From an uncultured Bacilli bacterium (GTDB taxonomy: Bacteria > Bacillota_I > Bacilli_A > RF39 > UBA660): a stretch of 64,000 nucleotides of DNA. Within the stretch, counting starts at the first letter, position 1. Each line of letters starts with the position of its first letter. The notes beneath the pieces are model-generated. The model had not been told where the DNA came from and made no database searches. It saw nothing but the letters and a program-made list of their open reading frames with translations. Positions 4,940 to 57,321 of the stretch are shown here, piece by piece. Where the stretch lies: positions 92,604 through 156,603 of the forward strand of contig CAKOKD010000003.1 in NCBI GenBank assembly GCA_934090935.1, written 5' to 3'. Position numbers and translations under genes: made by a program.

Positions 4940-6193
4940 TTAAGATATTTTAAACGCTGGAGAAATACCATAGATCGCGATAGTGTTTGTATATGAAAGC
5001 TTACCTGATTCACTAACGTTACAGAATCCTTGAGCATCCTTTGCAGCAGCAGTTCTAAGCCAATAACTAGTGTTTGTTCCTTGATAAGTCTTTATGGCTG
5101 GAGAGTACTCTGTTAAAGTAACTGAAGCATTCTTATAATAGTCAAGTTGTCTTGTTGAAGCACCTGATGAATCATAGAATGTTGAATTTTCTCCCCAAAT
5201 CTCTTTTGGTGAAAACAAATATATTTTGTCGCTTGATTGAAAATCCATTTCTCCCCTTGTTGGACCATGTCCCGATATTATTTTGGTTGTAGTTATAACA
5301 TTTTGTAACTCACTTGGAAGAGCAGAATAAATAGTGTCATTAAGATAAAGTTTTAAATATGTTGAATTCCAACCTCCTACGTTAGTAGCTGTGCTATTTA
5401 CATATATTTTATCTATAATATCTACAATTTCAAATACAAAACCACAGGCCGTTTCACTTCTTTCAGTAGTACATGCACTTGTATTCATAATGCGAACTTG
5501 AACAGTTTGAGATGGAATAACGGCAGATTTACATGTATAAGAAGTAGTATTCTTTATAATTGTTCCACAGTTATTTGTATAAGAACTTAATGTTATAGTT
5601 TTAGTATCTCCTACTTTATATTCACTTGTATTACCATTTTCGATGTCGTTTTTAATAGTTTCCCAGCTATTCTTTTCAAAAGCACTGGCACCTGTTTCAA
5701 TCTCAGTTCGTTCTGTTGCATTAAATTCTAATGTACAGGTATATTCTTCACTTACCTCTTCTGTTGATGTTTTATTAAGAGTTGTTGTAAGAGTTCCATT
5801 TACTGACTTTTTAGCTTTTACAACATCGGCATTTCCTTCAAGTTCATTCTTGATACTTGTATATTTTGCTGTTGCTCCGTCCTTTGGTACACATGTTACT
5901 TTAACCTCTGCATCATAAATGCTTGAGTTATTAGTTATCGTATATTCTAGAATTGAAGTTTGATTTAATGTCTTTAATTCTGATGTTTCAAAAGTTATAA
6001 CCTTTTTAGTATCATCAATTACATCATCATATACATCTTTACCATCAAGACTAGCAGCAGTAAATGCTACTGAAAAATCATCCTCATTTTCAGATATTCT
6101 TGTATTCGAATTTATTATAAGCGTTGTTGATACGGCAGCAAATCCAATACTCATAATCAATATTACTAAAGCTAACATATTCTTATTTTTCAT
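4940..6193 (-). CDS. variable secreted protein paralog, conserved N-module + C-terminal SPAFRI-type domain; tandem copy without poly-G promoter
   Basis: MKNKNMLALVILIMSIGFAAVSTTLIINSN... N-module is about 75% identical to the other copies. C-terminus has ...WLRTAAA...GISPAFKIS. RBS GAGAGG. Confidence 0.75.
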   Translation of the reverse strand: MKNKNMLALVILIMSIGFAAVSTTLIINSNTRISENEDDFSVAFTAASLDGKDVYDDVIDDTKKVITFETSELKTLNQTSILEYTITNNSSIYDAEVKVTCVPKDGATAKYTSIKNELEGNADVVKAKKSVNGTLTTTLNKTSTEEVSEEYTCTLEFNATERTEIETGASAFEKNSWETIKNDIENGNTSEYKVGDTKTITLSSYTNNCGTIIKNTTSYTCKSAVIPSQTVQVRIMNTSACTTERSETACGFVFEIVDIIDKIYVNSTATNVGGWNSTYLKLYLNDTIYSALPSELQNVITTTKIISGHGPTRGEMDFQSSDKIYLFSPKEIWGENSTFYDSSGASTRQLDYYKNASVTLTEYSPAIKTYQGTNTSYWLRTAAAKDAQGFCNVSESGKLSYTNTIAIYGISPAFKIS

Positions 6194-6240
6194 ATATTTT
6201 CCTCTCTATCAACTTTAGTATGTGTATTATTAACTATTTT

Positions 6241-6269
6241 AAACAAAAAAAGATAGATTTAATCTATCC
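6241..6269 (-). terminator. rho-independent terminator of paralog 6289..7476
   Basis: Minus-strand GGATAGATT-aa-ATCTATC hairpin followed by TTTTTTT. Confidence 0.5.
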
Positions 6270-6288
6270 ATTTATATTTAAACTAGTG

Positions 6289-7476
6289 TTATGCGATTCG
6301 GAATGCTGGAGAGACTCCATTGAAATAGTTTGCATCGTTACTGTACCATCTGCCATCACTGTCGACGCCAAGGAAACCAATGTCATAATCAGAATAAGCC
6401 GAACGAAGCCACCATGTTGTATTTATTCCGTTATGTTGTTTTATTGCTCCTGCGTAACTGCTTGTTGTTACTCCTTGATTTTTATAATAATCTAATTGTT
6501 TTGATGTTCCTATTGATGTATCATGATCATTACCATTCCAAACTTCTTGTGCACTCAATAAGTATAATTTATCTTGGGTTTCAAAATTCGTTTCTCCACT
6601 TGTACTTCCATGACTTGATATTACTTTTGTTATTGTAATCACGTTTTGTAATTCAATTGGAAGTGCATTATATATTGTTCCATTTACATATGTACGTAGT
6701 TCTGAATCTTTCCATCCACCTACATTTGTTGCTGTACTATTTATTTTGTGATCTGCTATATAGCTTGCAAATTCTACTACAAATCCACATGCTGTTTCAC
6801 TTGTTTCTGTTGTACATGAACTCATGTTTGCAATACGCACTGTATGTGTTCCTAAATCCCCCAAGTCTACTTCTTTAGTATCTCCCACATTGTATTTATC
6901 TGTATTTCCTGATTTTACAGCTTTTTGTATTGTTTGCCAACTATCAGTTGAAAATGAGATAGGATCCGGAATGTTTACTCCAACAGTATCTCTTTCTACT
7001 GCATTAAATGTAAGTGTACATACATATTCTTCTCTTACTTCTTCTGTTGCTGTTTTATTAAGTGTTACTGTTAATGTTCCATTAACACTTTCCTTTGCCA
7101 ATACTTTCGTTACATTTCCTTCTAGTTCATTTTTTATACTTGTGTATTTTGCTGTAGTTCCATCTTTTACTTTACAATTTACTTGCACTTCAGCATCATA
7201 GTTTGCTGAATTATTTGTTACTTCATAATTTAACACACTTGTTTGATTTAGTGTTTTTAATTCTGATGTTTCAAATGTTATTATCTTCTTTGTTTCATCT
7301 ACTACAGAACTATATACATCCTTTCCATCTATACTTGCAGCTGTAAAGATAACTGAGAAGTCATCTTGATTTTCACTTACGTTTGCATTTCCATTTATTA
7401 TTAATGTTGTTGAGATCGCTGCAAATCCAATTGACATTAAAATAATTGCTACTATAAGCATACTCTTCTTTTTCAT
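6289..7476 (-). CDS. variable secreted protein paralog (N-module + SPAFRI-type C-domain)
   Basis: MKKKSMLIVAIILMSIGFAAISTTLIINGNA... Conserved blocks NVGDTKEVDLG, CTTETSETACGFVVEF, TNVGGW, LQNVITxTKVIS, QLDYYKN, WWLRSAYS, GVSPAFRIA. Confidence 0.8.
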   Translation of the reverse strand: MKKKSMLIVAIILMSIGFAAISTTLIINGNANVSENQDDFSVIFTAASIDGKDVYSSVVDETKKIITFETSELKTLNQTSVLNYEVTNNSANYDAEVQVNCKVKDGTTAKYTSIKNELEGNVTKVLAKESVNGTLTVTLNKTATEEVREEYVCTLTFNAVERDTVGVNIPDPISFSTDSWQTIQKAVKSGNTDKYNVGDTKEVDLGDLGTHTVRIANMSSCTTETSETACGFVVEFASYIADHKINSTATNVGGWKDSELRTYVNGTIYNALPIELQNVITITKVISSHGSTSGETNFETQDKLYLLSAQEVWNGNDHDTSIGTSKQLDYYKNQGVTTSSYAGAIKQHNGINTTWWLRSAYSDYDIGFLGVDSDGRWYSNDANYFNGVSPAFRIA

Positions 7477-7503: not shown

Positions 7504-7530
7504 ATTTTATAATACCCCCCCGATTTTCAA
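7504..7530 (-). promoter_or_regulatory. phase-variable-type promoter: -35 TTGAAA (7525..7530), G7 tract (7515..7521), -10 TAAAAT (7504..7509); spacer 15
   Basis: The coding strand reads cTTGAAAatcGGGGGGGtattaTAAAATaaaaa. The same element recurs with G8 or G9 at five other loci. Confidence 0.6.
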
Positions 7531-7681
7531 GTCATTTTGGAGGGTTTACACTACTTCTTGTAAATATCCTACTGTATAACTTTATTATACTACATATTTG
7601 TTGTATTTTACTTATTTTATTTTTTTATGTGTAAAGTCAAAAAAAGCACTTAAGTTTTAATCCTTAAATGCTTATTTATTT

Positions 7682-14109: not shown

Positions 14110-16269
14110 TTAATCAAATATGCTTTTACACTTAGTTACTTCGCCATCTAAATGCCATCCGTCATTAGTGTTATATTTTAATACATACCATTCAAATTGA
14201 CAGTCTTTCTTTAAAAAGTTTTTCTTTTCATACTTTTTAATAGCTTGTTCTTCTATTGATTTTAGCTCTATCTTTGATTCAGCAGTCATATAATTATATA
14301 TTTCATCTTGATTTAATGATAAAACGGCTTCATGTTTTTTATTTTTCTTAGCCTCTGCTATTATATTGCTGATTCTGTTTGACGATAAAACAAATTTAAT
14401 TTTTTTATTCTTTCCTAATTCTTCATACCAAATAGGATTTCTACCTGCTCCATTGCTTGGTCTGTTAAGTACTTTTAATCTATATAGTCTTGTTGTTGCA
14501 ATTCCAAGTTTTTCATATACAGCTTCAATATTTGTATTCTCTTTTATATTTTTTAAAGATTTATTCCATTTTTTAAACTCTAAATAATAAGGATTTTCTC
14601 CATCAACATATACTAAAGAATCATATTTAGGTTCTTCTACAGCTTCATCATATTTAACTTTCTTTTGAGTTTCTACTAAAGCATTATTTTGATAATATTT
14701 AAATGTAACAATAAACTCTTTTTTGCTTGTAGTTGCATAATATGATGTATCCTTAGAAGGCATTGTTTCATCAACCTTCCAAGAACTAAATGTATATCCT
14801 TCTTTTACTTTATAATCAGGTAGTTTTATTTTCTCTCCATATTTATAATTTTCTTCTTTATATAAATCATTATCTATAAAGAATTTTGCTTTATAAGTTT
14901 CTAAATCATAAGTGATAGTTAGTACTAAACTTCCATCTGCTTTAATAATACCAGTTAGAATAGATTTTTCTTTGTTGATTTTATAACCAGACTTTTTATC
15001 ATTTAAAGTTATTTTTTCATTTGTTTTGCCAGTTTTAACTTTCTCATTTTCTTTATAAGTACCATCTAGATTTTCTAATCTTTCAATTATTTTATACTTA
15101 GTGTTTTCACTTTCTTTGAAAAGTGCTTTTAAAGATAAATCGCCTGTTGTTCCTCGTTTTATCTCATCCACTTTTTTTCCGGATTCATCCTCCCATGAAA
15201 CAAATACATATCCTTGTTTTTCTATTTTGTTTAATTTAAATGTCTTTGTTTCTATAGTATATGAAGTTTTATTATCAGTTTTACTTCCACCATTTAAATC
15301 ATATTCAATCTTATAAGTAATTAGATTATATTCAGCTTTGATAACTAAATCACTTTTAATATTTTTTTCACTTTTATTCCATGATTTAAAAGTATAACCT
15401 GTTCTTTCTTTTACTTCAGGAATTGTTGCATCATTTCCATATTTAACAGTTTGTTCACTTATAATAGTATCATTATAATCAACAAATTTAACTTTAAAAG
15501 TCATATTATTTATCTTTTCGATAATCTCTTCTATTTTCTTAGTTTCTTTATCGATTTCTTCTTGAGTTGACTTTTCATTATCAATAATTTTTTCAGCTGA
15601 TTTTATCTCTTTTTCTAAATCAGCAAGTATTTTTTTTGCCTTTGAATCATCAGTTGAATAAAGATATTCTTTTGATCTTTTAATAGCGTTTTTTAATTCT
15701 GTATCATCAACGACTGTAATAGTTCTTGTAACTGTTAATGCTGCGTTTTTACTTGAATCTGTTACATCATAAGTTACTTTATAAACTCCTTTTTTAGAAG
15801 TATCAACCATATTTTTAGTAACAATCTTTTTTGTTAAATCACCATCATAGTTGTCACGTGCTTTAGCTTTTAAATCATTGTAAACTGTATTAATTCTAAT
15901 TATTTCATCACTTCCATTTAAAGTGATAACTGGTGCAGTTGTATCAACAACAAGGAATTCTTTTTTTATTTCATTTGATAATCCAGCTTCATCAGTAGCA
16001 ATAAATGTTACTTCATATTTTCCTACCTTTTTATTGTTGATATTGTTTTCGATTTTTAAAGTAACATTATCTGCAACTTTTCCGTTAAATTTTGGAATGT
16101 TATCAAATACTTCTATTTTAAATTTATTACCTGTTATATCTATATCAGGTTTTGTAGAAGTTGATATTAAAGTTTCACTTCCATTTTCTTCACTTGGATT
16201 AGCAAATGAGAATGCAAAGAATCCAAAGAAAACAAATATTATAAGTGCAAGTAATTTCTTCTTATCCAT
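14110..16269 (-). CDS. secreted surface protein with Ig-like (DUF5011-type) domain and Listeria-Bacteroides (flg_new) repeats
   Basis: Signal peptide present. DTTAPVITLNGSDEI...YDGDLT is Ig-like. Repeated modules have the pattern YxVxFxxNGG...GYTFxxW (e.g. VKFVDYNDTIISEQTVKYGNDATIPE...GYTFKSWN). Confidence 0.7.
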   Translation of the reverse strand: MDKKKLLALIIFVFFGFFAFSFANPSEENGSETLISTSTKPDIDITGNKFKIEVFDNIPKFNGKVADNVTLKIENNINNKKVGKYEVTFIATDEAGLSNEIKKEFLVVDTTAPVITLNGSDEIIRINTVYNDLKAKARDNYDGDLTKKIVTKNMVDTSKKGVYKVTYDVTDSSKNAALTVTRTITVVDDTELKNAIKRSKEYLYSTDDSKAKKILADLEKEIKSAEKIIDNEKSTQEEIDKETKKIEEIIEKINNMTFKVKFVDYNDTIISEQTVKYGNDATIPEVKERTGYTFKSWNKSEKNIKSDLVIKAEYNLITYKIEYDLNGGSKTDNKTSYTIETKTFKLNKIEKQGYVFVSWEDESGKKVDEIKRGTTGDLSLKALFKESENTKYKIIERLENLDGTYKENEKVKTGKTNEKITLNDKKSGYKINKEKSILTGIIKADGSLVLTITYDLETYKAKFFIDNDLYKEENYKYGEKIKLPDYKVKEGYTFSSWKVDETMPSKDTSYYATTSKKEFIVTFKYYQNNALVETQKKVKYDEAVEEPKYDSLVYVDGENPYYLEFKKWNKSLKNIKENTNIEAVYEKLGIATTRLYRLKVLNRPSNGAGRNPIWYEELGKNKKIKFVLSSNRISNIIAEAKKNKKHEAVLSLNQDEIYNYMTAESKIELKSIEEQAIKKYEKKNFLKKDCQFEWYVLKYNTNDGWHLDGEVTKCKSIFD

Positions 16270-16602: not shown

Positions 16603-16722
16603 ACTCGCGTATAAATGCAACTGACTACCTTTATTTCATATGAAATAATAAGGCTCTTGAGCTTTGCGTCACTACATTTCTATAGTTTTGCCCTAATCTA
16701 CTTTAATAAAATATAACATAAT

Positions 16723-17265
16723 TTAGTTTATTAGTAAATTAAAATTTTTAAATATTTGAAATTTGTTTATTGGGAATATACGTAGATTAACCTTACCTAT
16801 AATGTTTTCTTTTTTTACTAGACCAAATTCACGGCTATCGCTTGAGTTTGTACGATTATCACCTAAAACAAAATACATGTTATCAGGTATTTTATCGTAT
16901 CCAATGTCCTCTAGTTTAAAGTTTTTTGTTGACTCTTTTATGTTTTTTTCTTTATACATCTGTCCATCTATATATAATATATTATCTTTATACTCAATAT
17001 GTTCTCCTGGTAAGCCAATTATTCTTTTTACCATTACTTTATCGTTTTGTTTAATGGATACAATTTCATTTCTTTTAATTTTTCTTAAATGATATATAAG
17101 TTTATTGACTACTGTGACATCACCACTTTTTAAAGTAGTATTCATAGAAGGACCGATAACCTCTTGAAATGATACGACATATATTGCAATAAATAAAATG
17201 ATAGCGATCGCGGCCAAATATTTAAATGCATCACGAAAAAATTCTTTTATATCTCTTAGATCCAT
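16723..17265 (-). CDS. signal peptidase I (LepB/SipS type, Ser/Lys dyad)
   Basis: N-terminal TM. Box B GPSM, box D GDNRTNSSDSR, KRIIGLPGE. 180 aa. Confidence 0.85.
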   Translation of the reverse strand: MDLRDIKEFFRDAFKYLAAIAIILFIAIYVVSFQEVIGPSMNTTLKSGDVTVVNKLIYHLRKIKRNEIVSIKQNDKVMVKRIIGLPGEHIEYKDNILYIDGQMYKEKNIKESTKNFKLEDIGYDKIPDNMYFVLGDNRTNSSDSREFGLVKKENIIGKVNLRIFPINKFQIFKNFNLLIN

Positions 17266-17791: not shown

Positions 17792-18970
17792 TTATACTAT
17801 TCTAAATGCTGGGGAAACACCTTTAGAGACGTTCGCATCGAAAGCGGAGTTGACGCCGCTGCTACTGACGCAAAGAAACCAGTAATTAACGCCAGAATAA
17901 GCCGAACGTAACCACCAATAGTCATTTCTTCCTTTATATTGTTTTATTGCTCCTGCATATTTATCAGCTGTTATTCCTTGATTTTTGTAATAATCTAATT
18001 GTCTTGACGTTCCTACTGATGTATCATGATCATCACCATTCCATACCTCTTGTGCATTTAATAAATATAATTTATCTTGTGTTTCAAAATTTGTTTCTCC
18101 AGAATTTTTTCCATGGCTTGATATTATTTTTGTTGAAGTTATTACACTTTGTAAGTCACTTGGAAGTGCATTATATATTGTTCCATTTATATATGTACGT
18201 AACTCTGAATTTTTCCATCCACCAACATTTGTTCTTGTACTGTTAAATGCTCGCATTGTTATTATATCTGCAAACTCAACTACAAATCCACATGCTGTTT
18301 CACTTGTTTCAGTTGTACATGCACTCATGTTTGCTATACGCACTGTATGTGTCCCTAGATTACCTAATTCTACTTCTTTAGTGTCTCCTACATTATATTT
18401 GCTTGTATTTCCATTCTTTACGTTTGATGCTATTGCTGACCAACTATCCTTTTGGAATTGAGTTAATTCTACACCAACTGTGTCCCTTTCTACTGCATTG
18501 AATTCTAACTTACATGTATATTCTTCACTTACTTCTTCTGTTGATGTTCTATCAAGTGTTACTGTTAATGTTCCGTTTAATGAAGTCTTTGCTTTTACAA
18601 CTGTGGCATTATTTTCAAGTTCATTCTTGATACTTGTATATTTTGCTTTTGTTCCGTCCTTTGGTACACATGTTACTTTAACCTCTGCATCATAGTTTGC
18701 TGAGTTATTTGTTACTTCGTAATTTAATATACTTGTTTGATTTAATGATTTTAATTCTGATGTTCCAAATGTTATTATCTTCTTTGTATCATCTACTACA
18801 GAACTATATACATCCTTTCCATCTATACTTGCAGCTGTGAAGATAACTGAGAAGTCATCTTGATCTTCGCTTACTTTAGCATTTCCGTTTATTATTAATG
18901 TTGTTGAGATCGCTGCAAATCCAATTGACATTAGTAATATTGCTACTATAAGCACACTCTTCTTTTTCAT
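17792..18970 (-). CDS. variable secreted protein paralog (N-module + SPAFRI-type C-domain)
   Basis: MKKKSVLIVAILLMSIGFAAISTTLIINGNAKV... C-terminus ends ...WWLRSAYS...GVSPAFRIV. Confidence 0.8.
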   Translation of the reverse strand: MKKKSVLIVAILLMSIGFAAISTTLIINGNAKVSEDQDDFSVIFTAASIDGKDVYSSVVDDTKKIITFGTSELKSLNQTSILNYEVTNNSANYDAEVKVTCVPKDGTKAKYTSIKNELENNATVVKAKTSLNGTLTVTLDRTSTEEVSEEYTCKLEFNAVERDTVGVELTQFQKDSWSAIASNVKNGNTSKYNVGDTKEVELGNLGTHTVRIANMSACTTETSETACGFVVEFADIITMRAFNSTRTNVGGWKNSELRTYINGTIYNALPSDLQSVITSTKIISSHGKNSGETNFETQDKLYLLNAQEVWNGDDHDTSVGTSRQLDYYKNQGITADKYAGAIKQYKGRNDYWWLRSAYSGVNYWFLCVSSSGVNSAFDANVSKGVSPAFRIV

Positions 18971-18997: not shown

Positions 18998-19025
18998 ATT
19001 TTATAATACCCCCCCCGATTGTCAA
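18998..19025 (-). promoter_or_regulatory. phase-variable-type promoter: -35 TTGACA (19020..19025), G8 tract (19009..19016), -10 TAAAAT (18998..19003); spacer 16
   Basis: The coding strand reads TTGACAatcGGGGGGGGtattaTAAAAT, then the leader with AAGGAAAG RBS and ATG at 18970. Confidence 0.6.
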
Positions 19026-24785: not shown

Positions 24786-26153
24786 TTATTTTATTAATGT
24801 TATACGTGCATATCCATTTCCTTGTTTAGAACAGTTTTCGGTTGGTGTTTCGCTTGTGCATGTAGTTGATATGGTTTTTGTTGACTCTTCACTAGATTCA
24901 GTACAGTTGTAACAATACATCGATTTTTCGGATAAAAGTGAATTTCCTATGTATCCTGAACCTCCGCCAGCGGTATATCCAGCAACAGTTCCACCATAGA
25001 AACCTCCACCGCCTCCAGCCCAGGCCAAAGTGCCTCCACCGCCTTGACCAAATGTTCCAAAATTAGGATTATTTTTATTTGAAGACTCATTCACTGAATT
25101 ATATATTCTTTTGCCTCCATTTGTTTGGGTTCCTCCAAATCCTTGATAGGGTTTGCCTGAAGATGCTGCTATATAAGATCCCGAGTTTCCTCCAATATAA
25201 CCACCACCGGATCCAGAAACTATTTTATAATTATGGTCGTTATTACCACCACCGGCTCCTCCTCCAGAAACAATTAATACATCATCAATGTTATTATTAA
25301 AAGCATATAGTAAACCAGATTCTAATGCTATGTGTGTCGCACCACCTCCACTTGCATTATATGAATTAGTAGCCGAATTAAATGATGCAGATCCTCCTCC
25401 ATTATAGCCGCCTTCTTTGTTTACCCAAGTTAATTCTCCAAGGCCTTGTCCTCCAATATTAATATAAAACTTATTATTCTTTTCTAAATAAATTATTCCT
25501 TGAGAATACCCTCCATATCCACCAGAAATATTTACAGTTTTTCCACCTTCTGCTCCCCAAGTTTCAAGCTTATATGTTCCATTTACTGGAACTTCAAATG
25601 TTTGTTCATCTCCAGTATAATCAAATGTCCATTCTGTTGGTCCATCGTAACTAACACCTAATTCTGTTCTTTCTACGGCATTAAATTCTAATGAACATGT
25701 ATATTCTTCAGTTGTTTCTTCTATTGATTGTTTATCTAAGGTAACAGTTAATGTTCCATTTAATGTTTCGTTTGCTTTTACAACTGTTGCATTTCCTTCT
25801 AATTCATTTTTGATACTTGTATATTTTGCTGTTGTTCCGTCCTTTGGTACACATATAACACGCACTTCTGCATCATAGTTTGCTGAATTGTTTGTTACTT
25901 CATATGTTAGTACTGATGTATCATTTAGTTTTTTTAGGTCTTTACTTTTAAATGTTATTGTCTTCTTTGTATCATCTGTTACTTCATCATATACATCTAT
26001 TCCATCTAATGTTGCTGCTGTAAATATTACTGAATAATCATCTGTATTTTCATTTACTTTTGCATTTCCATTTATTATCAATGTTGTACTTACTGCTGCA
26101 AATCCAATTGACATCAATATTATTGCTACTACTAACATGCTCTTCTTTTTCAT
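24786..26153 (-). CDS. variable secreted protein paralog: conserved N-module + ALK/LTK-like glycine-rich (poly-Gly) domain + Cys-containing C-terminal tail
   Basis: N-module MKKKSMLVVAIILMSIGFAAVSTT... Then PTEWTFDYTGDEQTFEVPVNGTYKLETWGAEGG...GGYGGYSQG...GGGATHIALESGLL...LIVSGGGAGGG... Tail YCYNCTESSEESTKTISTTCTSETPTENCSKQGNGYARITLIK. Confidence 0.8.
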   Translation of the reverse strand: MKKKSMLVVAIILMSIGFAAVSTTLIINGNAKVNENTDDYSVIFTAATLDGIDVYDEVTDDTKKTITFKSKDLKKLNDTSVLTYEVTNNSANYDAEVRVICVPKDGTTAKYTSIKNELEGNATVVKANETLNGTLTVTLDKQSIEETTEEYTCSLEFNAVERTELGVSYDGPTEWTFDYTGDEQTFEVPVNGTYKLETWGAEGGKTVNISGGYGGYSQGIIYLEKNNKFYINIGGQGLGELTWVNKEGGYNGGGSASFNSATNSYNASGGGATHIALESGLLYAFNNNIDDVLIVSGGGAGGGNNDHNYKIVSGSGGGYIGGNSGSYIAASSGKPYQGFGGTQTNGGKRIYNSVNESSNKNNPNFGTFGQGGGGTLAWAGGGGGFYGGTVAGYTAGGGSGYIGNSLLSEKSMYCYNCTESSEESTKTISTTCTSETPTENCSKQGNGYARITLIK

Positions 26154-26180: not shown

Positions 26181-26208
26181 ATTTTATAATACCCCCCCCG
26201 ATTTTCAA
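26181..26208 (-). promoter_or_regulatory. phase-variable-type promoter: -35 TTGAAA (26203..26208), G8 (26192..26199), -10 TAAAAT (26181..26186); spacer 16
   Basis: Same element as the other copies. Followed upstream by an about 130-bp block shared with 31835..31960. Confidence 0.6.
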
Positions 26209-27291: not shown

Positions 27292-27810
27292 TTAAGCTTT
27301 TATAAAATTCATGTTTAAAGTAAAACTATATATATATCCTTCAATATCAGAAGGATTTTTATTTTCTATTTTCAATTTTATTCTTTTTTGGCTTTGTTTA
27401 CTTATTATATCACCAATCTCTACCTTTTTTCCATCTTCCCATTCAATAACATAATCAATATTTTCACATAAATCTAAATCATCAGTTTTTTTATTTTTAG
27501 AATACATAAATTGATTTAGTTTAACATCAAATGTTCCATCATTTGCTACATCTATTGTATATTCATAGATATCTTCATTTTTTAAAGGAATTTCAAAGGA
27601 AATTGTTGTTTTACTTGTTTTGAAATCCAATCCTTGAACTGAGGCCGTATTATCTTTTAAGTTTATTGGATTTTCAAAATGTACATCATATTTTTCACTT
27701 TTAACAGTAGTTTTTTCTTTAAAATTATAGATATATACTCCATATCCAATAGATAATATGATTATCATAACTCCTAAAAATATAATTATTTTATTTAAAC
27801 CACTTTTCAT
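27292..27810 (-). CDS. hypothetical membrane-anchored protein
   Basis: N-terminal TM IIIFLGVMIIILSIGYGVYIY. 172 aa. Confidence 0.4.
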   Translation of the reverse strand: MKSGLNKIIIFLGVMIIILSIGYGVYIYNFKEKTTVKSEKYDVHFENPINLKDNTASVQGLDFKTSKTTISFEIPLKNEDIYEYTIDVANDGTFDVKLNQFMYSKNKKTDDLDLCENIDYVIEWEDGKKVEIGDIISKQSQKRIKLKIENKNPSDIEGYIYSFTLNMNFIKA

Positions 27811-29600: not shown

Positions 29601-31772
29601 TTATTTTATTAAAGTTATACGTGCGTATCCATTTCCTTGTTTTGAACAATTTGCTGTTGGCGTTGCACTTGTGCATGTAGTTGAAATTGTTTTTGTGGAC
29701 TCTTCAGTAGATGTAGCACAGTTATAACAATACATCACTTTTTCGGATAATTTTGAATTACCGATGTATCCTGAACCACCGGCTGCTGAAGAACCATTAT
29801 AATAAGCTCCGCCTCCACCATAAAGTCCACTTCCGCCTCCAGATGCGCTTTGAGTTTTCTCGTAATTTCCTCCATAACCGAATCCTCCATTAGAAATCGT
29901 TAAAGCTGTACTTCCATTAGTTCCATATTTGCTTTGTGAACCTCCAGTTGCTAAACTATCTTTCTCTGTTATTCCATTAGATCCTAAATAACCTCCACCA
30001 GATCCTCCTGAATGTGGATTGTATGGAGATTGGGGAGTTGTTAGATACTTTTTATAGTGCCAACCGGCTCCTCCGCCTCCACCAGAAACAATAAGAACAT
30101 TTTCAATATTATTGCTATAATTTTTTAACTGACCATCATCTATCAATAAGTTCTGAATGGAAGTTGCTCCGCCTCCAGCTCCCCAGACTGTTCCTCCATC
30201 TGATTTTGCGTTTCCTCCTCCATTATAGCCACCATCATATATTTTAACTGTAGAATAATCATCTCCATCAGTTCCTTTTCCTCCAACTATAATATATAAA
30301 ATATCATTTTTATTTAAAGTAACTACTCCTTTTGAATATCCACCATATCCACCAAGAGCCTCGCTTGTTTGAGCATAACCACCTTGTGCTCCCCATGTCT
30401 CTAACTTATATGTTCCAGATACTGAGGCAGTAAATGTTTGCTCGCCTCCTGTATAATCAAATGTCCATTCAGTTGGACTTTTATATGCTTTTTCTGTTCT
30501 AGATATTTTATTAACCTTTAACTTACAAGTAAAATTCTCCATATTGATATTCTCTAGTGTTATAGTCTTCCTATCTTGAGCTTCAATAGTTATTGGATCT
30601 GTTGATATTTTACTATCTTTATCATTTAAAACTAAAGTAATACGTGCATATCCGTTTCCTTGTTTTGAACAGTTTTCGGTTGGTGTTTCATTTGTACATG
30701 TTGTTGATATGGTTTTTGTTGACTCCTCACTAGATTCAGTACAGTTATAGCAATACATCACTTTTTCGGATAATTTTGAATTTCCAATGTAACTTGAACC
30801 ACCTCCAGCTCCTTGTAAAGTACCTGATGTACCGCCATATAAACCGCCTCCGCCACTAATTGTACCAGTATTTATATTTGTTCTTCCTGTACCAAATGAA
30901 CCATTATACTTGCCGCTTGTGTCAAGTGAATTATAGCTTTCTGTTTGAGTTCCACCTACTCCACAAACATAGCCTTTTTTACCATTATATGCATCATGAC
31001 AATCATAAGCGGAAACACCGATATAACCACCAGCATGTCCACCTTTTCCGTTCCAACCACCATGGTTAGAACAACCGCCTCCGCCTCCAGAGACAATAAT
31101 TAAATTTTCAAGACTATTTTTAAACGTAGTTAATAATCCAGAAGATGTTGCTATATGTGTTGCACCTCCGCCTGATGACACTCTTCCAGAGGTATCCGCG
31201 CTTCTTTTGGAATGACCTCCTCCATTATATCCTCCATTGACTAAATTTTTATCACTTGTTCCATTGTTAGCTTTGCCTGAACCGCCAACATTTATATATA
31301 AAACGTCATCCTTATTAAGTGTTGTTGTACCAGACGAATATCCACCGTAACCTCCAAAGTATGTTGAATCGATTACTCCACCTTGTGCTCCCCATGTCTC
31401 TAACTTATATGTAGCAGACATTGGTGCTGTAAATGTTTGTTCAGCACCTGTATAATCAAATGTCCATTCAGTTTTATCTGGTACTATATTATTTTCACAT
31501 TCAATATAACTTTCTGTGTCATATTCTGTTGAATCATTTACTATATCTATACTTATATTTCCATCTATATTGCTTAAAGTAAATTCATCTTTTGTTGCAT
31601 TTATTCCTGTATTTTCTGTATCATTTACTTTTAAATTATCTAAATATACCTTAAAATCACTTATGTTTTCTGATATTTTACCTAATCCATATATATTTAC
31701 TGTTGCATTATATGCTGCATACCCTATTATCATAAATAAAACAGTAACTAGCATTATTGTCGTCTTTTTCAT
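29601..31772 (-). CDS. large secreted protein with two ALK/LTK-like glycine-rich domains, each followed by the Cys-containing tail
   Basis: Signal MKKTTIMLVTVLFMIIGYAAYNATVNIYG. Two copies of TEWTFDYTGxEQTFTAxxSxTYKLETWGAQGG...GGYGGYS...GGGAT...SGGGGG...YCYNCxxSxEESTKTISTTCT..PT.NCSKQGNGYARITL. Confidence 0.75.
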   Translation of the reverse strand: MKKTTIMLVTVLFMIIGYAAYNATVNIYGLGKISENISDFKVYLDNLKVNDTENTGINATKDEFTLSNIDGNISIDIVNDSTEYDTESYIECENNIVPDKTEWTFDYTGAEQTFTAPMSATYKLETWGAQGGVIDSTYFGGYGGYSSGTTTLNKDDVLYINVGGSGKANNGTSDKNLVNGGYNGGGHSKRSADTSGRVSSGGGATHIATSSGLLTTFKNSLENLIIVSGGGGGCSNHGGWNGKGGHAGGYIGVSAYDCHDAYNGKKGYVCGVGGTQTESYNSLDTSGKYNGSFGTGRTNINTGTISGGGGLYGGTSGTLQGAGGGSSYIGNSKLSEKVMYCYNCTESSEESTKTISTTCTNETPTENCSKQGNGYARITLVLNDKDSKISTDPITIEAQDRKTITLENINMENFTCKLKVNKISRTEKAYKSPTEWTFDYTGGEQTFTASVSGTYKLETWGAQGGYAQTSEALGGYGGYSKGVVTLNKNDILYIIVGGKGTDGDDYSTVKIYDGGYNGGGNAKSDGGTVWGAGGGATSIQNLLIDDGQLKNYSNNIENVLIVSGGGGGAGWHYKKYLTTPQSPYNPHSGGSGGGYLGSNGITEKDSLATGGSQSKYGTNGSTALTISNGGFGYGGNYEKTQSASGGGSGLYGGGGAYYNGSSAAGGSGYIGNSKLSEKVMYCYNCATSTEESTKTISTTCTSATPTANCSKQGNGYARITLIK

Positions 31773-31799: not shown

Positions 31800-31827
31800 A
31801 TTTTATAATACCCCCCCCGATTTTCAA
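31800..31827 (-). promoter_or_regulatory. phase-variable-type promoter: -35 TTGAAA (31822..31827), G8 (31811..31818), -10 TAAAAT (31800..31805); spacer 16
   Basis: Identical architecture to the 26181..26208 copy. Confidence 0.6.
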
Positions 31828-32344: not shown

Positions 32345-32369
32345 TAAAAAAAATCGCATTCTTGCGATT
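32345..32369 (-). terminator. rho-independent terminator of 32368..34497 (stop codon lies inside the hairpin)
   Basis: Minus-strand AATCGCAAGAATGCGATT plus TTTTTTTT. Confidence 0.5.
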
Positions 32370-34497
32370 ATTTTATTAAGGTAATACGTGCGTATCCGTT
32401 TCCTTGTTTTGAACAGTTTGCTGTTGGAGTTTCATTTGTACATGTAGTTGATATAGTTTTTGTTGCCTCTTCACTAGACTCGGTACATTTATAACAATAC
32501 ATTGATTTTTCACTTAATTGTGAATTTCCTATATATCCTGAGCCTCCACCAGCTCCAGCATAATGTGAAAAACCGCCTCCATAAAAGCCAGCACCTCCTC
32601 CGGCTCCAGAAGTTCCTGTATCATATCCACCAATTCCAAAGACTCCATAATTAGTTGTTCTTATACCATGATCTGTACTAGAGTTATATCCATTTCCATA
32701 AACTACAGTTCCACCACTTGTTTGACTTCCTCCAAAGCCTATCCAATAGTAATCACCACTGTTGGTTCCATCGTTACCTTTGTATCCACCACCGGCTCCT
32801 CCAGATCCACTATAAGATGAAGAGTCATTTGTTCGATATCCAAAAGCTGCTCCTCCGCCTCCGGAAACCATTAAGATGGAATCAAGATCGTTTTGTAGAT
32901 TTTCTAGTCTTTCACTTTTTAGTAAAATATAACTAGCATCTCCTCCATCACTACTTCCTTTATAAACTTCATTTCCTTGACCTCCACCAAAGACTTTGTT
33001 TTGTCCACCAACAGTTATATATAAATTATCTTTTTTGTTTAGATAAATTTCTCCAATAGAATATCCTCCATATCCTCCGATATAGGAAACTCCCGCCTTT
33101 GAAGTTGCATTACCTCCTTGTGCTCCCCATGTCTCTAACTTATATGTTCCACTTGTTGGTGCTGTAAATGTTTGCTCTAATCCAGTATAATCAAATGTCC
33201 ATTCAGTTGAGCCTGTATATATTTCTTCTTTTGTCGTTCTTGATATCTTGTTAACTTTTAATTTACAAGTGAAATTCTCCATATTAATATTCTCTAATGT
33301 TATTGACTTCTTATCTTGTGCTTCTATTGTTACCACTTCTGTTGAAGTAATTTCTTTTGAATTACTTGAAACTAGAGTAATACGAGCGTATCCATTGCCT
33401 TGCTTTGCACAATTTTCAGTTGCTGTTGATGAAGTACATGTAGTTGAAATGGTTTTTGTTGACTCTTCATCTGACTCAGCACAGTTATAGCAATACATTG
33501 ATTTTTCACTTAATTGTGAATTACCAATATATCCTGAGCCACCTCCAGCGCCTCCATGGAAACTACCTCCGCCTCCATAAAAGCCAGCACCTCCGCCACA
33601 AGCAACATAATTTGCCACAGTTGATCCAAATCCTTTACCAAATGTACCAATACATGCTCGATATCCGCTTGATGTTCCTTTTATCCAGACCATATCTCCT
33701 CCAGTTGTTTGACTACCACCTGTTCCATAACCATATCCATATCCGTTAGTATGGTTAACTGACTCTCCGTTGTTTCCTTTTATTCCTCCGGCAGATCCTC
33801 CGTTTCCATCTCCATAACCTGAGCCTCTGTTTGCTGCTCCGCCTCCACCTCCAGAAACAATCAATATGTTTTCTTTTTTAGTTTCAAAAGTGGATAATAA
33901 TCCCGATAAATCTGCTATATGTGTTGCTCCGCCGCCAGCTTTTCCGTAATTGCCATTATTAACGTACCCACCGCCATTATATCCTCCGGTAAGAGCAACT
34001 CCTTGACCACCTGCATTTATATATAGAATTTTTCCACCTTCTAAGGTCATTTTACCAGAAGAATATCCGCCATAGCCTTCAAAATAATTTGATGAATAAG
34101 ACCCACCTTGTGCTCCCCATGTTTCAAGCTTGTATGTTCCACTTATTGGTGCTGTAAATGTTTGCTCCGATCCTGTGTAATCAAATGTCCATTCAGTTTT
34201 CTCCGGTGTTACATTGCTTTCACACTCAAGATAACTTTCTGTGTCATATTCTGTTGAATCATTTACTATATCTATACTTATGTTTCCATTTATATTGCTT
34301 AAAGTAAATTCGTCTTTTGCATCATTTATTCCTGTACTTTCCGTATCATTTACTTTTAAATTATCTAAATATACTTTAAAGTCACTTATGTTTTCTTCTA
34401 GTTTACCCAATCCATATATATTCACTGTTGCATTATAAGCAGAAAAACCTATCACCATAAACAATATTGTTAAAAGCAAAATGATTCCTTTCTTCAT
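32368..34497 (-). CDS. large secreted protein with two ALK/LTK-like glycine-rich domains (tandem paralog of 29601..31772)
   Basis: MKKGIILLLTILFMVIGFSAYNATVNIYG... Same two-domain organisation and the same C-terminal tail. No poly-G promoter upstream. Confidence 0.75.
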   Translation of the reverse strand: MKKGIILLLTILFMVIGFSAYNATVNIYGLGKLEENISDFKVYLDNLKVNDTESTGINDAKDEFTLSNINGNISIDIVNDSTEYDTESYLECESNVTPEKTEWTFDYTGSEQTFTAPISGTYKLETWGAQGGSYSSNYFEGYGGYSSGKMTLEGGKILYINAGGQGVALTGGYNGGGYVNNGNYGKAGGGATHIADLSGLLSTFETKKENILIVSGGGGGAANRGSGYGDGNGGSAGGIKGNNGESVNHTNGYGYGYGTGGSQTTGGDMVWIKGTSSGYRACIGTFGKGFGSTVANYVACGGGAGFYGGGGSFHGGAGGGSGYIGNSQLSEKSMYCYNCAESDEESTKTISTTCTSSTATENCAKQGNGYARITLVSSNSKEITSTEVVTIEAQDKKSITLENINMENFTCKLKVNKISRTTKEEIYTGSTEWTFDYTGLEQTFTAPTSGTYKLETWGAQGGNATSKAGVSYIGGYGGYSIGEIYLNKKDNLYITVGGQNKVFGGGQGNEVYKGSSDGGDASYILLKSERLENLQNDLDSILMVSGGGGAAFGYRTNDSSSYSGSGGAGGGYKGNDGTNSGDYYWIGFGGSQTSGGTVVYGNGYNSSTDHGIRTTNYGVFGIGGYDTGTSGAGGGAGFYGGGFSHYAGAGGGSGYIGNSQLSEKSMYCYKCTESSEEATKTISTTCTNETPTANCSKQGNGYARITLIK

Positions 34498-38232: not shown

Positions 38233-38547
38233 TCACATATGTTTTCTTGATGAAACCATTTTATCAGGAATATAATCTTGAACAAATGAAAGTGCTTGAT
38301 CAGCTGAATTAACAACAGCAGATGAAGTATGTCCAAGCCTATCTTGATATTGAACAGTGACGTGATCAGTGGCACTTAAACCAGATTGCTTTGATATAAA
38401 ATCAAATGTTAAACTACAATCTTCTGAGTAAACGATAACTCTTTTACACCCTGGAGCTAAATCTTGTTCTCTACAACTGGATAATCCATTTGTAAGTCCT
38501 TCATATATTTCATTTAAATTTGTGTTAGTTTCAACACTCATATTCAT
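38233..38547 (-). CDS. small soluble hypothetical protein (104 aa), compositionally foreign (about 40% GC), driven by a poly-G promoter copy
   Basis: MNMSVETNTNLNEIYEGLTNGLSSCREQDLAPGCKRVIVYSEDC... No signal peptide. GAGAGG RBS. Confidence 0.45.
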   Translation of the reverse strand: MNMSVETNTNLNEIYEGLTNGLSSCREQDLAPGCKRVIVYSEDCSLTFDFISKQSGLSATDHVTVQYQDRLGHTSSAVVNSADQALSFVQDYIPDKMVSSRKHM

Positions 38548-38573: not shown

Positions 38574-38601
38574 ATTTTATAATACCCCCCCCGATTTTCA
38601 A
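38574..38601 (-). promoter_or_regulatory. phase-variable-type promoter copy: -35 TTGAAA (38596..38601), G8 (38585..38592), -10 TAAAAT (38574..38579)
   Basis: Same element. Here it is upstream of a non-paralog cargo gene. Confidence 0.55.
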
Positions 38602-55756: not shown

Positions 55757-56057
55757 ATAAAATATATTAAAAATATTTGAAATACTTATGAAAAATAAAA
55801 GAAGATATTATGAAATAAAAAACTTAACTAAATTAGTTAAGTTAAAAATTATTATGTTTGATATCAATTATACCATTATTTTGTTACAATTACTTTTTAT
55901 AAATAATTGTAACTATTAATTGTTTTTTCTTTATAACGTTATTTATACTGGCTTTACTCGCGTTGCTCGTAGTGCGCCTACGTATAAATAACTATCGGTT
56001 TAGTGTGTATCTCCACTTATGCTCATCTAAATTTATAGTTTTCTACATCTACATTGC

Positions 56058-57263
56058 TTATGCGATTCGGAAAGCTGGAGAGACTCCGCAGGAATCGCTC
56101 GCACCGTAGCTGCCCCAGTTGCCGATGAAGATGACATTAAGGAAGCCGGACGTATTGAGAGAATAAGCCGAACGAAGCCACCAATTAGAGTTAGCTCCTT
56201 TATATTGTTTTATTGTTCCTGCCTTATTACTTGTTGTTACTCCTTGATTTTTATAATAATCTAGTTGTTTCGATGTTCCTACTGCTGTATCATATTGAGC
56301 GCTAGAAGAACTTGCAAAGTCTCCATATATCTCTTCATTTGATAATAAATATAATTTATCTTGTGTTTCAAAATTTGTTTCTCCACTTGTACTTCCATGT
56401 CCTGATATTACTTTTGTTGTTGCTATTACGTTTTGTAAGTCACTTGGAAGTGTATTGTATATTGTACCATTTACATATGTGCGTAATTCTGAATCTTTCC
56501 ATCCTCCTACATTTGTTTCTGTACTATTAAATGATTGTTTAGTTATTATATTTGCAAACTCAACTACAAATCCACATGCTGTTTCACTTGTTTCAGTTGT
56601 ACATGCACTCTTATTTGCTATTCTTACTGTATGCGTTCCAAGAGAACCTAAGTCTACTTCTTTTGTATCTCCCACATTATATTTACTTGTGTTTCCTATT
56701 TGTACTGCTTTTTGAATTGTTTTCCACGAATCTGTTGCAAATGATACTGGATCTAGAATATCTTCTCCTATAGTATCTCTTTCAACTGCATTAAATGTAA
56801 GTGTACATACATATTCTTCTCTTACTTCTTCTGTTGCTGTTTTATTTAATGTTACTGTTAATGTTCCATTTAAGCTTTCTTTTGCTTTGACAACTGTGGC
56901 ATTATTTGCTAATTCATTTTTAATACTTGTATATTTTGTTGTTATTCCAGTCTTTGGTACACATGTTACTTTAACCTCTGCATCATAGTTACTTGAGTTG
57001 TTTGTTACTTCATAATTTAAGATACTTGTTTGATTAAGTGTTTTTAAATCACTTGTTTCAAATGTAATTATTTTCTTTGTACCATCTATTACATTTGCAT
57101 ATACATCTTGTCCATCTAAGGTTGCTGCAGTGAAAATAACACTAAAATCATCTGTATTTTCTCCTACTTTTGCATTTCCATTTATTATTAATGTTGTTGA
57201 TACAGCCGCAAATCCTATTGCTAATAATAGTATAGTAACTGCTATAATCGATTTTCTTTTCAT
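56058..57263 (-). CDS. variable secreted protein paralog (N-module + SPAFRI-type C-domain)
   Basis: MKRKSIIAVTILLLAIGFAAVSTTLIINGNAKV... C-terminus ends ...WWLRSAYS...CGVSPAFRIA. Confidence 0.8.
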   Translation of the reverse strand: MKRKSIIAVTILLLAIGFAAVSTTLIINGNAKVGENTDDFSVIFTAATLDGQDVYANVIDGTKKIITFETSDLKTLNQTSILNYEVTNNSSNYDAEVKVTCVPKTGITTKYTSIKNELANNATVVKAKESLNGTLTVTLNKTATEEVREEYVCTLTFNAVERDTIGEDILDPVSFATDSWKTIQKAVQIGNTSKYNVGDTKEVDLGSLGTHTVRIANKSACTTETSETACGFVVEFANIITKQSFNSTETNVGGWKDSELRTYVNGTIYNTLPSDLQNVIATTKVISGHGSTSGETNFETQDKLYLLSNEEIYGDFASSSSAQYDTAVGTSKQLDYYKNQGVTTSNKAGTIKQYKGANSNWWLRSAYSLNTSGFLNVIFIGNWGSYGASDSCGVSPAFRIA

Positions 57264-57294
57264 TGTTCACAACTCCTCTATTTTTTACATTTTT

Positions 57295-57321
57295 AGTATA
57301 TCATCCCCCCCCGATTTTCAA
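57295..57321 (-). promoter_or_regulatory. phase-variable-type promoter: -35 TTGAAA (57316..57321), G9 tract (57304..57312), -10 TATACT (57295..57300) preceded by TG; spacer 15
   Basis: The coding strand reads TTGAAAatcGGGGGGGGGatgTATACTaaaa. Longest G tract, and a different -10 from the other copies. Confidence 0.55.

What the first reader, a model, noticed from the sequence alone, without database searches (positions are those of the whole stretch)
4940..7476. Eight-member secreted protein family: a shared N-terminal about 165-aa module fused to unrelated C-terminal domains
All eight genes begin M-K-K-(K)-x, then an about 20-aa hydrophobic stretch ending IGF(A/S)A(Y/I), with no lipobox. The genes are 4940..6193, 6289..7476, 17792..18970, 24786..26153, 56058..57263 and, more divergent, 29601..31772 and 32368..34497. 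Five of them then share a 75-90% identical beta-rich module (DDFSVIFTAAS...YDAEV.V.C...EEYxCTLxFNAxER). The C-terminal domain varies. Four carry an about 230-aa domain with blocks NVGDTK, CTTExSETACGFV, TNVGGW, LQNVITxTKxIS, QLDYYKN, WWLRSAYS and a strictly conserved terminal G(V/I)SPAF(R/K)I. Four carry ALK-like Gly-rich domains. Within the SPAFRI domain, the last about 25 residues before the terminal motif are hypervariable between copies and locally GC-richer. The two copies at 4940..7476 are in tandem, and only the upstream one has the poly-G promoter. Modular shuffling, tandem arrangement and promoter switching are hallmarks of antigenic or phase-variable surface systems. No described Bacillota family matches.
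Basis: partly seen in the sequence, partly recalled or inferred. Interest (0 to 1): 0.75.

Follow-up and report, generated by a model that had tools for sequence, protein, structure and literature searches.

The report
Retroelement-diversified surface lectin gene family
Seven genes of an uncultured human-gut Bacilli bacterium encode surface proteins with one shared membrane-anchor-plus-stalk module and interchangeable binding heads; the hypervariable tip of the lectin-type heads carries the signature of a known targeted-mutation machine, a diversity-generating retroelement (DGR), rather than of an unknown mechanism.

Summary
The family is real, but it has seven members, not eight, and all are on the minus strand. 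Each protein starts with a hydrophobic helix and a 120-aa Ig-like sandwich that no Pfam or NCBIfam model covers. This N-module tops 539 protein clusters elsewhere. The C-terminal heads are described domains: DUF6273 in four genes and ALK_LTK_GRD in three.

The hypervariable patch is a DGR variable region. In 115 homologues, 16 columns reach 2.7-3.2 bits. Of their residues, 99.6% are ones that adenine mutagenesis of AAY codons can produce. Near-identical genes have variable regions (VRs) that are either about 100% or about 50% identical. In relatives the family gene sits beside a template repeat (TR) and a reverse transcriptase (RT), and 0-1 of the VR/TR mismatches fall outside adenines.

The window holds no TR or RT. 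Gene 56058-57263 keeps the 3' recognition hairpin and fits a relative's TR (21 adenine and 3 other mismatches). Genes 6289-7476 and 17792-18970 carry frozen, decaying VRs, and 4940-6193 has lost the pattern.

Head swapping is supported: some N-modules are 100% identical on different heads. The G-tract lies in the promoter spacer. It is G8 in 65 of 78 promoters, so phase variation is unproven.

Verdict: a new member of a known kind.

The parts
6289..7476 (-). Family gene B (395 aa): TM helix, Ig-like N-module, DUF6273 head. It is the upstream gene of the tandem pair.
   Evidence: ORF. DUF6273 E 2e-22. AF2 pLDDT 84 with helix 2-28, sandwich 42-161 and head 180-395.
4940..6193 (-). Family gene A (417 aa): N-module plus a divergent DUF6273 head. 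It is the downstream gene of the tandem pair and has no poly-G promoter.
   Evidence: Its VR-equivalent shows no adenine bias (21/37 against 38/70, p=0.49).
17792..18970 (-). Family gene C (392 aa): N-module plus DUF6273 head.
56058..57263 (-). Family gene E (401 aa): N-module plus DUF6273 head. It is the copy most like a live DGR target.
24786..26153 (-). Family gene D (455 aa): N-module plus one ALK_LTK_GRD head.
   Evidence: E 2e-34.
29601..31772 (-). Family gene F (723 aa): divergent N-module and two GRD copies. The first GRD appears to be inserted into the N-module.
32368..34497 (-). Family gene G (709 aa): same layout as F. It has no poly-G promoter.
56070..56176 (-). VR of gene E (107 nt).
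   Evidence: Against TR variant T2 (L018), 21 of 37 adenine sites are changed and 3 of 70 other sites (p=1.5e-9).
55937..55993 (-). Inverted repeat (11-bp stem, GC-rich interior) downstream of the E VR. It matches the 3' flank of the cis DGR target in L002.
   Evidence: The fold has an energy of -17.4 kcal/mol.
6301..6407 (-). VR-equivalent of gene B: a frozen, decaying VR.
   Evidence: 17/37 adenine against 15/70 other mismatches (p=0.008). It is identical or nearly so across samples while the rest of the gene drifts.
17804..17910 (-). VR-equivalent of gene C: a decaying VR.
   Evidence: 25/37 against 17/70 (p=1.6e-5). It contains W and K and has lost the invariant W.
4952..5058 (-). VR-equivalent of gene A: the DGR pattern is lost.
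7504..7530 (-). Shared promoter of gene B: TTGAAA, ATC, G7, TATTATAAAAT.
   Evidence: The orthologous locus L001 has G8.
18998..19025 (-). Shared promoter of gene C, with TTGACA and G8.
26181..26208 (-). Shared promoter of gene D, G8.
31800..31827 (-). Shared promoter of gene F, G8.
57294..57321 (-). Shared promoter of gene E, G8, with a variant -10 region.
38574..38601 (-). The same promoter cassette (G8) before an unrelated 104-aa ORF (38233-38547).

Best explanation
The seven genes encode cell-surface proteins built on one plan. An N-terminal hydrophobic helix acts as a signal-anchor or a signal peptide. A 120-aa Ig-like beta-sandwich stalk with two conserved cysteines follows. An exchangeable C-terminal binding head completes the protein.

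In four genes the head is a DUF6273 (C-type-lectin-fold) domain. Its last roughly 107 nt form the variable region of a diversity-generating retroelement. In a DGR, a reverse transcriptase copies a template repeat, miscopies its adenines, and the cDNA overwrites the variable region. AAY codons therefore become any of 15 residues.

What is shown in close relatives: the family gene is followed by a 179-aa accessory gene, the TR and the RT. The VR differs from the TR only at adenines, and it is replaced wholesale between otherwise identical genes.

What is inferred for the window: the four copies are paralogues at different stages. Gene E (56058-57263) keeps the target-recognition 3' element and fits a relative's TR, so it is a probable remote target. 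Genes B and C carry frozen VRs that are drifting. Gene A has lost the signature. The RT and TR lie outside these 64 kb.

The conserved 5' cassette (promoter plus N-module) also lets heads be swapped between paralogues by recombination.

The G7/G8 tract in the promoter spacer may add slipped-strand tuning of expression. This step is the weakest.
For: Family and domains:
- ORFs, alignment and Pfam hits.
- The N-module always occupies residues about 24-165 of 539 clusters at 50% identity, in proteins of 150-1900 aa.
- Its partner heads elsewhere are GRD, DUF6273, DUF285, Flg_new, LRR/BspA, F5/8-C and GDSL.

Structure:
- AF2 pLDDT is 84, with a helix at 2-28, a sandwich at pLDDT above 90, and then the head.
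- The best PDB match is 9qa6, the Thomasclavelia ramosa IgA peptidase (E 2e-5). Its N-terminal domain is DUF6273 (PMC12402451).

DGR signature:
- 16 columns reach 2.7-3.2 bits and are interleaved with invariant columns.
- 1849 of 1856 residues at those columns belong to the AAY-derived set, with no E, Q or W.
- Pairs at least 98% identical outside the VR are either about 100% or about 50% identical inside it.
- L002 and L003 carry target, 179-aa gene, TR and an RVT_1 RT in that order.
- At TR adenines, 18 of 19 VR/TR mismatches fall in L002 and 12 of 13 in L003. The TR is identical in the two loci, and 25 of the 33 differences between them lie in the VR.
- The cis VRs of L007 and L029 have 23 and 28 adenine mismatches and no other mismatch.
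- The literature names DUF6273 as a C-lectin-like DGR target with the VR at its C-terminus (PMC10743442, PMC11792537).

Window copies:
- Mismatch tallies and Fisher tests.
- The promoter-to-flank region of E aligns to the L002 target locus up to the ribosome-binding site of the 179-aa gene.
- The B-type VR is unchanged while 34-40 residues change elsewhere in the protein.

Head swapping: N-modules are 100% identical between third-head-type (283-289-aa) and DUF6273 proteins.

Cellular, not phage: the genes lie among housekeeping genes, and no viral contig carries the TR.
Against: - No TR, RT or homologue of the 179-aa gene is in the window (blastn word 7, tblastn, YxDD scan).
- The window's genome is not in the genome collection, so current activity on E is not shown.
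- E still has 3 non-adenine mismatches to the nearest TR known, which comes from another species.
- Only one sequence of E was seen, so no variation of E itself was observed.
- The 179-aa gene is not recognisable as Avd (the usual DGR accessory protein) by sequence.
- Whether the N-terminal helix is cleaved was not tested.
- The G-tract is G8 in 83% of promoters.
Confidence: 0.8

Rival explanations
1. Variation arises from recombination between paralogues (cassette shuffling, gene conversion) together with promoter switching, with no retroelement involved.
For: - N-modules are up to 100% identical on different heads.
- The same VR peptide occurs on backbones less than 96% identical.
- The tandem pair sits next to a different upstream gene in L001.
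- The 5' cassette is shared.
Against: Recombination does not explain several observations.
- 99.6% of residues at the variable columns belong to the AAY-derived set.
- Hypervariable and invariant columns are strictly interleaved.
- VR/TR mismatches are adenine-only, next to an RT, in relatives.

Recombination probably acts as well, but it is not the source of the hypervariable patch.
Confidence: 0.1
2. The G-tract is a fixed feature of a family-specific promoter, such as spacer geometry or a regulator site. It is not a contingency switch, and the rare length differences are neutral variants or assembly errors.
For: - 65 of 78 promoters have exactly G8 across several species.
- 5 of the 7 G6 cases lie in frameshift-ridden VOFC01 contigs.
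- Only one orthologous pair differs in length.
- The whole 60-nt cassette, including the 5' UTR, is conserved.
Against: - All G/C runs of 8 or more in a 28% GC window are these promoters.
- The tract lies exactly in the -35/-10 spacer, so one G changes the spacing from 16 to 15 nt.
- Window gene B has G7 where the 99.8% identical L001 has G8.
- G7, G6 and G9 also occur in short-read assemblies.
Confidence: 0.5
3. All four DUF6273 copies in the window are fossils. The lineage has lost its DGR, and the VRs are only relics that drift.
For: - There is no DGR machinery in 64 kb.
- The B-type VR is frozen across samples.
- B, C and A have 15, 17 and 38 non-adenine mismatches.
- Only one E sequence was seen.
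Against: - E keeps the end of the VR, the hairpin and the terminator nearly as in an active cis target.
- E has only 3 non-adenine mismatches to a TR from another species.
- Related genomes with one TR hold remote copies with 1-6 non-adenine mismatches.
Confidence: 0.3
4. The N-terminus is an ordinary cleaved Sec signal peptide (cleavage after IGFA), and the proteins are released or bound to the wall rather than anchored in the membrane.
For: - The layout is MKKK followed by a hydrophobic run, with G at -3 and A at -1 of 'GFA|A' (sequence).
- A type I signal peptidase gene lies at 16723-17265.
Against: - The hydrophobic stretch is about 22 residues long and is modelled as one helix, 2-28.
- G17, F18, A19, L25 and G29 are at least 90% conserved at 30-45% overall identity. 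That is unusual for a signal peptide that is discarded.
- No prediction tool or proteomic data was available.
Confidence: 0.35

Closest known systems
DGR variable proteins with a C-type-lectin fold (Bordetella phage BPP-1 Mtd, Treponema denticola TvpA, Legionella LdtA). The general properties are from my own knowledge and from PMC5758913 and PMC6328139.
   Same: - The VR lies at the C-terminal end of a CLec-type domain.
- AAY-rich TR codons and adenine-only mismatches.
- An RT and an accessory gene stand next to the cis target.
- Additional remote targets exist in the same genome.
- There is a hairpin 3' of the VR.
   Different: - The head is carried on an undescribed TM-helix plus Ig-like N-module that many other head types share.
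- The targets form a dispersed paralogue family with frozen VRs.
- All copies share a promoter with a G-tract.
- The accessory gene (179 aa) is not recognisable as Avd.
DUF6273 DGR targets of gut phages (tentaclins, PMC10743442; Faecalibacterium prophages, PMC11792537).
   Same: They share the same Pfam domain, and the VR maps to the C-terminus of DUF6273.
   Different: - Those are phage tail or receptor-binding proteins.
- Here the genes lie among housekeeping genes, beside rplQ in relatives.
- The products have an N-terminal membrane or secretion signal.
- No viral contig holds the TR.
N-terminal DUF6273 domain of the Thomasclavelia ramosa IgA peptidase (PDB 9qa6; PMC12402451).
   Same: It is the best structural match to the model (E 2e-5, 279 columns). 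It also comes from a gut Bacillota surface protein.
   Different: That protein is a sortase-anchored M64 protease with DUF6273 at its N-terminus. No hypervariation is reported for it.
Phase-variable promoters with a homopolymer in the -35/-10 spacer (Neisseria meningitidis porA and opc, Mycoplasma hyorhinis vlp). From my own knowledge.
   Same: A G-run sits between -35 (TTGAAA or TTGACA) and -10 (TAAAAT), so one base changes the spacer length. The same promoter heads a multigene surface family.
   Different: Tract length is strongly modal (G8 in 83% of promoters). No expression data exist, and only one orthologous length difference was seen.
ALK/LTK glycine-rich domain (Pfam PF12810).
   Same: Three genes match at E 2e-34 to 5e-74. 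GRD is also the commonest partner of the N-module elsewhere, in 21 of 104 proteins.
   Different: This is a bacterial surface context, and no hypervariable patch was seen in these heads.

Membership tests
Pfam DUF6273 (PF19789) | HMM match above the gathering score (23.5 bits). | tested here: met
   58-84 bits in genes 4940, 6289, 17792 and 56058.
Pfam ALK_LTK_GRD (PF12810) | HMM match above the gathering score (24.5 bits). | tested here: met
   120-250 bits in genes 24786, 29601 and 32368, the last two with two copies each.
DGR target (variable protein) | Variable region at the C-terminal end of a C-type-lectin-fold domain. | tested here: met
   The entropy peak lies at residues 361-386 of 395, inside DUF6273. 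The fold assignment comes from PMC10743442 and from the match to 9qa6.
DGR target (variable protein) | Residues at variable positions are limited to those reachable from AAY codons by adenine substitution. | tested here: met
   1849 of 1856 residues (99.6%) in 116 sequences. All variable positions of window copies B and E comply.
DGR target (variable protein) | A template repeat in the same genome that differs from the VR only at adenines. | tested here: inconclusive
   There is no TR in the 64-kb window, and the rest of the genome is not available. The feature is met in relatives L002, L003, L007 and L029, with 0-1 non-adenine mismatches. Window copy E against a relative's TR gives 21 adenine and 3 other mismatches.
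DGR target (variable protein) | A DGR reverse transcriptase in the genome. | tested here: inconclusive
   None is in the window. An RVT_1 RT of 355 aa stands 1.2 kb downstream of the family gene in L002 and L003.
DGR target (variable protein) | Target-recognition element at the 3' end of the VR (conserved VR end plus downstream inverted repeat). | tested here: met
   This is met for E only: the hairpin at 55937-55993 and the flank match the L002 cis target. It is absent after A, B and C.
DGR target (variable protein) | VR replaced between otherwise identical genes (ongoing diversification). | tested here: inconclusive
   This is seen in relatives: P0151 and P0191 are 100% identical outside the VR and 53% inside it, and L002 and L003 behave the same way. 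It is not seen for the B type, which is frozen. No close variants of E were found.
Phase-variable promoter (repeat tract in the spacer) | Homopolymer between the -35 and -10 hexamers. | tested here: met
   TTGA(A/C)A, ATC, G7-8, TATTA, TAAAAT. The spacer is 16 nt with G8 and 15 nt with G7.
Phase-variable promoter (repeat tract in the spacer) | Tract length varies at one locus among cells or strains. | tested here: inconclusive
   Window gene B has G7 and the orthologous L001 has G8. Overall the counts are G8 65, G7 5, G6 7 (5 of them in error-prone contigs) and G9 1.
Phase-variable promoter (repeat tract in the spacer) | Expression changes with tract length. | not testable with these tools
   This needs reporter fusions or transcript data.
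Type IV pilin / class III signal peptide | A short charged leader ending in a conserved G, followed by the hydrophobic helix, with E at +5. | tested here: not met
TasA/camelysin (SipW-type signal, Peptidase_M73) | A match to the family models or to the TIGR04088 signal motif. | tested here: not met
   Neither Pfam nor NCBIfam gives a hit on the N-module.
Bacterial lipoprotein | A lipobox L-x-x-C at the end of the signal peptide. | tested here: not met
   There is no cysteine in residues 1-90 of any member.

The most novel reading that the evidence does not exclude
An uncultured human-gut Bacilli lineage (the group of 'Firmicutes bacterium CAG:582') may run a layered surface-variation system on one gene family. 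The layers would be:
- a single chromosomal DGR that rewrites the lectin tips of several dispersed paralogues in trans;
- a conserved 5' cassette (promoter plus an undescribed anchor/stalk module) that lets heads be exchanged by recombination;
- a G-tract in each copy's promoter spacer that switches or tunes each paralogue independently.

No such combination of DGR hypermutation with contingency-locus expression control has been described, as far as one literature search showed.
Probability: 0.25. Interest if true: 0.7.

Novelty: new member of a known kind. Interest (0 to 1): 0.5.

Why it matters
- It replaces an unexplained hypervariable patch with a specific, testable mechanism.
- It shows a cellular, non-phage DGR acting on a multi-paralogue surface-protein family in a barely known human-gut lineage.
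- The copies range from live targets to frozen relics, which gives a natural series for studying how DGR targets are gained and lost.
- It defines an undescribed N-terminal anchor/stalk module that heads hundreds of putative adhesin families.
- It flags a conserved G-tract promoter that could be tested as a second layer of variation.

Tried and rejected
- TR or RT inside the window: blastn with word 7, a YxDD scan and tblastn with the L002 RT and 179-aa protein all found nothing.
- An eighth member: the HMM scan of all six frames found only the seven genes. ORF 27292-27810, which has a TM segment and a beta-rich body, scores E=1 and BLASTP 0.66, so it is not a member.
- The AlphaFold-database fold library (afdb50) was unavailable.
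- Pilin, TasA and lipoprotein readings of the N-terminus were rejected on sequence motifs.
- Rfam found nothing in the conserved 5' leaders.
- Locating the window's own genome: it is not in genome contigs, where the best match is L012 at 91%. The exact E protein, P0395, could not be looked up.
- A template repeat for the third head type was not found in any held locus.
- The TR is not present in viral contigs.
- The 179-aa gene as Avd: no Pfam, NCBIfam or PDB sequence match.
- The rhomboid gene next to gene B as a processing partner was dropped, because the adjacency is not kept in L001.
Full report
**Observation.** They are 4940-6193, 6289-7476, 17792-18970, 24786-26153, 56058-57263, 29601-31772 and 32368-34497. 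An HMM built from the shared module finds no eighth copy in any frame. Five genes share a collinear N-terminal 165 aa at 70-84% identity. Two more diverge, and in them the first Gly-rich domain seems to be inserted into the module. That last point has only weak support: adding the second segment raises the score by 4-5 bits, more than any of 20 shuffled controls.

**The heads are described families.** Four genes match Pfam DUF6273 (E 1e-15 to 2e-23). Three match ALK_LTK_GRD (E 2e-34 to 5e-74), two of them with two copies each. The N-module has no Pfam or NCBIfam match.

**The N-module.** A phmmer search of residues 24-167 against 1.84 billion representatives finds 539 clusters at E up to 1e-3, of which 275 are at E up to 1e-10. 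The match always lies at residues about 24-165 of proteins that are 150-1900 aa long. Across 104 such proteins the partner heads are GRD (21), DUF6273 (15), DUF285 (12), Flg_new (12), LRR/BspA, CarboxypepD_reg, F5/8 type C and GDSL lipase. These are the domains of adhesin-like surface proteins.

**The hypervariable patch is a DGR variable region.** I aligned 115 full-length homologues from gut metagenomes. Column entropy is 0.1-0.6 bits along most of the protein. Sixteen columns between WWLRSA and GVSPAFRI reach 2.7-3.2 bits, and they are interleaved with invariant columns. Of the 1856 residues at those 16 columns, 1849 (99.6%) belong to the 15 amino acids that adenine substitution of an AAY codon can give. 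There is no E, Q or W. Pairs of proteins at least 98% identical outside the patch are either about 100% or about 50% identical inside it, which means all-or-none replacement.

Fetching the DNA of one such pair settled the mechanism. In L002 and L003 the family gene follows rplQ. After it come a 179-aa gene, a 107-nt A-rich repeat and a 355-aa RVT_1 reverse transcriptase. The repeat is identical in both loci. At repeat adenines, 18 of 19 (L002) and 12 of 13 (L003) VR mismatches fall. Of the 33 differences between the two loci over 3.7 kb, 25 lie in the VR. A scan of reference genomes found the same VR plus TR arrangement in 'Firmicutes bacterium CAG:582' and in uncultured Bacilli MAGs from Hadza guts. 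Their cis VRs show 23 and 28 adenine mismatches and none elsewhere. Further copies in the same genomes show 1-14 non-adenine mismatches.

The literature already names DUF6273 as a C-lectin-like DGR target with the VR at its C-terminus, but in phages (PMC10743442, PMC11792537). Here the context is chromosomal, and no viral contig carries the TR.

**The window's own copies.** The window contains no TR, no RT and no homologue of the 179-aa gene, and its genome is not in the reference collection. Against the three TR variants found, the four copies form a series.

| Gene | Adenine sites changed | Other sites changed | p |
|---|---|---|---|
| E (56058-57263) | 21 of 37 | 3 of 70 | 1.5e-9 |
| C (17792-18970) | 25 of 37 | 17 of 70 | 1.6e-5 |
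| B (6289-7476) | 17 of 37 | 15 of 70 | 0.008 |
| A (4940-6193) | 21 of 37 | 38 of 70 | 0.49 |

E alone keeps the 3' flank of the active cis target, including an inverted repeat at 55937-55993. Its homology to the L002 locus runs from the promoter up to the ribosome-binding site of the missing accessory gene. The B-type VR is unchanged in proteins that differ at 34-40 other positions. So E is a probable remote target, or a locus that lost its cassette. B and C are frozen VRs that are now drifting. A is a relic.

**Shuffling.** N-modules are up to 100% identical over 148 aa between proteins that carry DUF6273 and proteins that carry a third, Cys-rich head. The mean identity within one head type is 83%. 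Identical VR peptides also occur on different backbones. The tandem pair has a different upstream neighbour in L001, with the homology starting at a hairpin at window position 7645. Recombination through the conserved 5' cassette is therefore supported.

**The promoter.** A roughly 60-nt cassette is shared by five family genes and one unrelated 104-aa ORF. It reads TTGA(A/C)A, ATC, G7-8, TATTATAAAAT, followed by the 5' UTR and ribosome-binding site. These promoters account for every G/C run of 8 or more in the 28% GC window. The tract lies in the -35/-10 spacer, which is 16 nt with G8 and 15 nt with G7.

Gene B has G7, whereas the 99.8% identical locus L001 has G8. Across 78 promoters from genomes and metagenomes, however, the counts are G8 65, G7 5, G6 7 and G9 1. 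Five of the G6 cases sit in frameshift-ridden contigs, and only one orthologous pair differs in length. Slipped-strand switching is possible but not shown. A fixed promoter feature is about equally likely.

**Verdict.** The family and its variability are real. The main mechanism, a DGR acting on a CLec-type head, is known. The context is new: an undescribed anchor/stalk module, a dispersed series of paralogues from live to fossil, and a shared G-tract promoter. I rate it a new member of a known kind, of moderate interest.

Noticed in passing
window 16613-16702 (-): A c-di-GMP-I riboswitch (Rfam RF01051, 59.6 bits) lies upstream of the 719-aa surface protein gene 14110-16269, which has Bact_surface_Ig-like and Listeria-Bacteroides repeats. 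Another surface protein here may therefore be under c-di-GMP control.
   Followed up: partly
window 38233-38547 (-), promoter 38574-38601: A 104-aa ORF with no signal peptide and no family match is driven by the same G8 promoter cassette as the surface family. In metagenomes the cassette also precedes a roughly 200-aa membrane protein (MVECMKKVMNKRNMIIFGVIL...) and a 24-aa peptide (MMQNEENDNTYNSSFIYGNRICSI).
   Followed up: partly
window 29601-31772 and 32368-34497 (-): The N-module looks split. Residues 1-100 match its first half. A GRD follows, and then 'ITIEAQD(R/K)K(T/S)ITLENINMENFTCKLKVNKISRT' matches its last two strands, including the second conserved Cys. This would be a domain insertion into a stalk loop. 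Support is weak: 4-5 bits above the N-half alone, and above all 20 shuffled controls.
   Followed up: partly
P0001-P0120; loci L033, L036, L039, L047, L051, L054, L056, L062, L096: A third head type is not present in the window. These 283-289-aa proteins have a Cys-framed tail in which invariant columns alternate with columns of 3.0-3.7 bits. 95.5% of the residues there are AAY-type. This may be a second kind of DGR variable region, but no template repeat was found in the loci held.
   Followed up: partly
window 7644-7673 and L001 9831: The tandem pair plus the downstream 286-aa gene is 99.8% identical in a Hadza metagenome contig. There it follows a cation ATPase gene instead of the rhomboid gene. 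The breakpoint coincides with a terminator-like hairpin.
   Followed up: partly
L002 14018-16322: Type IV pilus or competence genes (T2SSF and prepilin peptidase A24) lie just downstream of the DGR cassette in relatives. No link to the family was found, and its N-termini lack the prepilin motif.
   Followed up: partly
window 46224-52811 (-): A 2195-aa putative surface protein has a weak dockerin-type repeat at its C-terminus (Dockerin_1, E 6e-4, below the gathering score). It is followed by a 469-aa cadherin-like protein at 44375-45784.
   Followed up: no
window 27292-27810 (-): A 172-aa protein has an N-terminal TM helix and a beta-rich body, with a layout like the N-module. There is no detectable sequence relation (E about 1).
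   Followed up: yes
P0391-P0394: Proteins of 630-638 aa cover the whole of gene E at 69-79% identity. They are longer family variants and were not examined.
   Followed up: no
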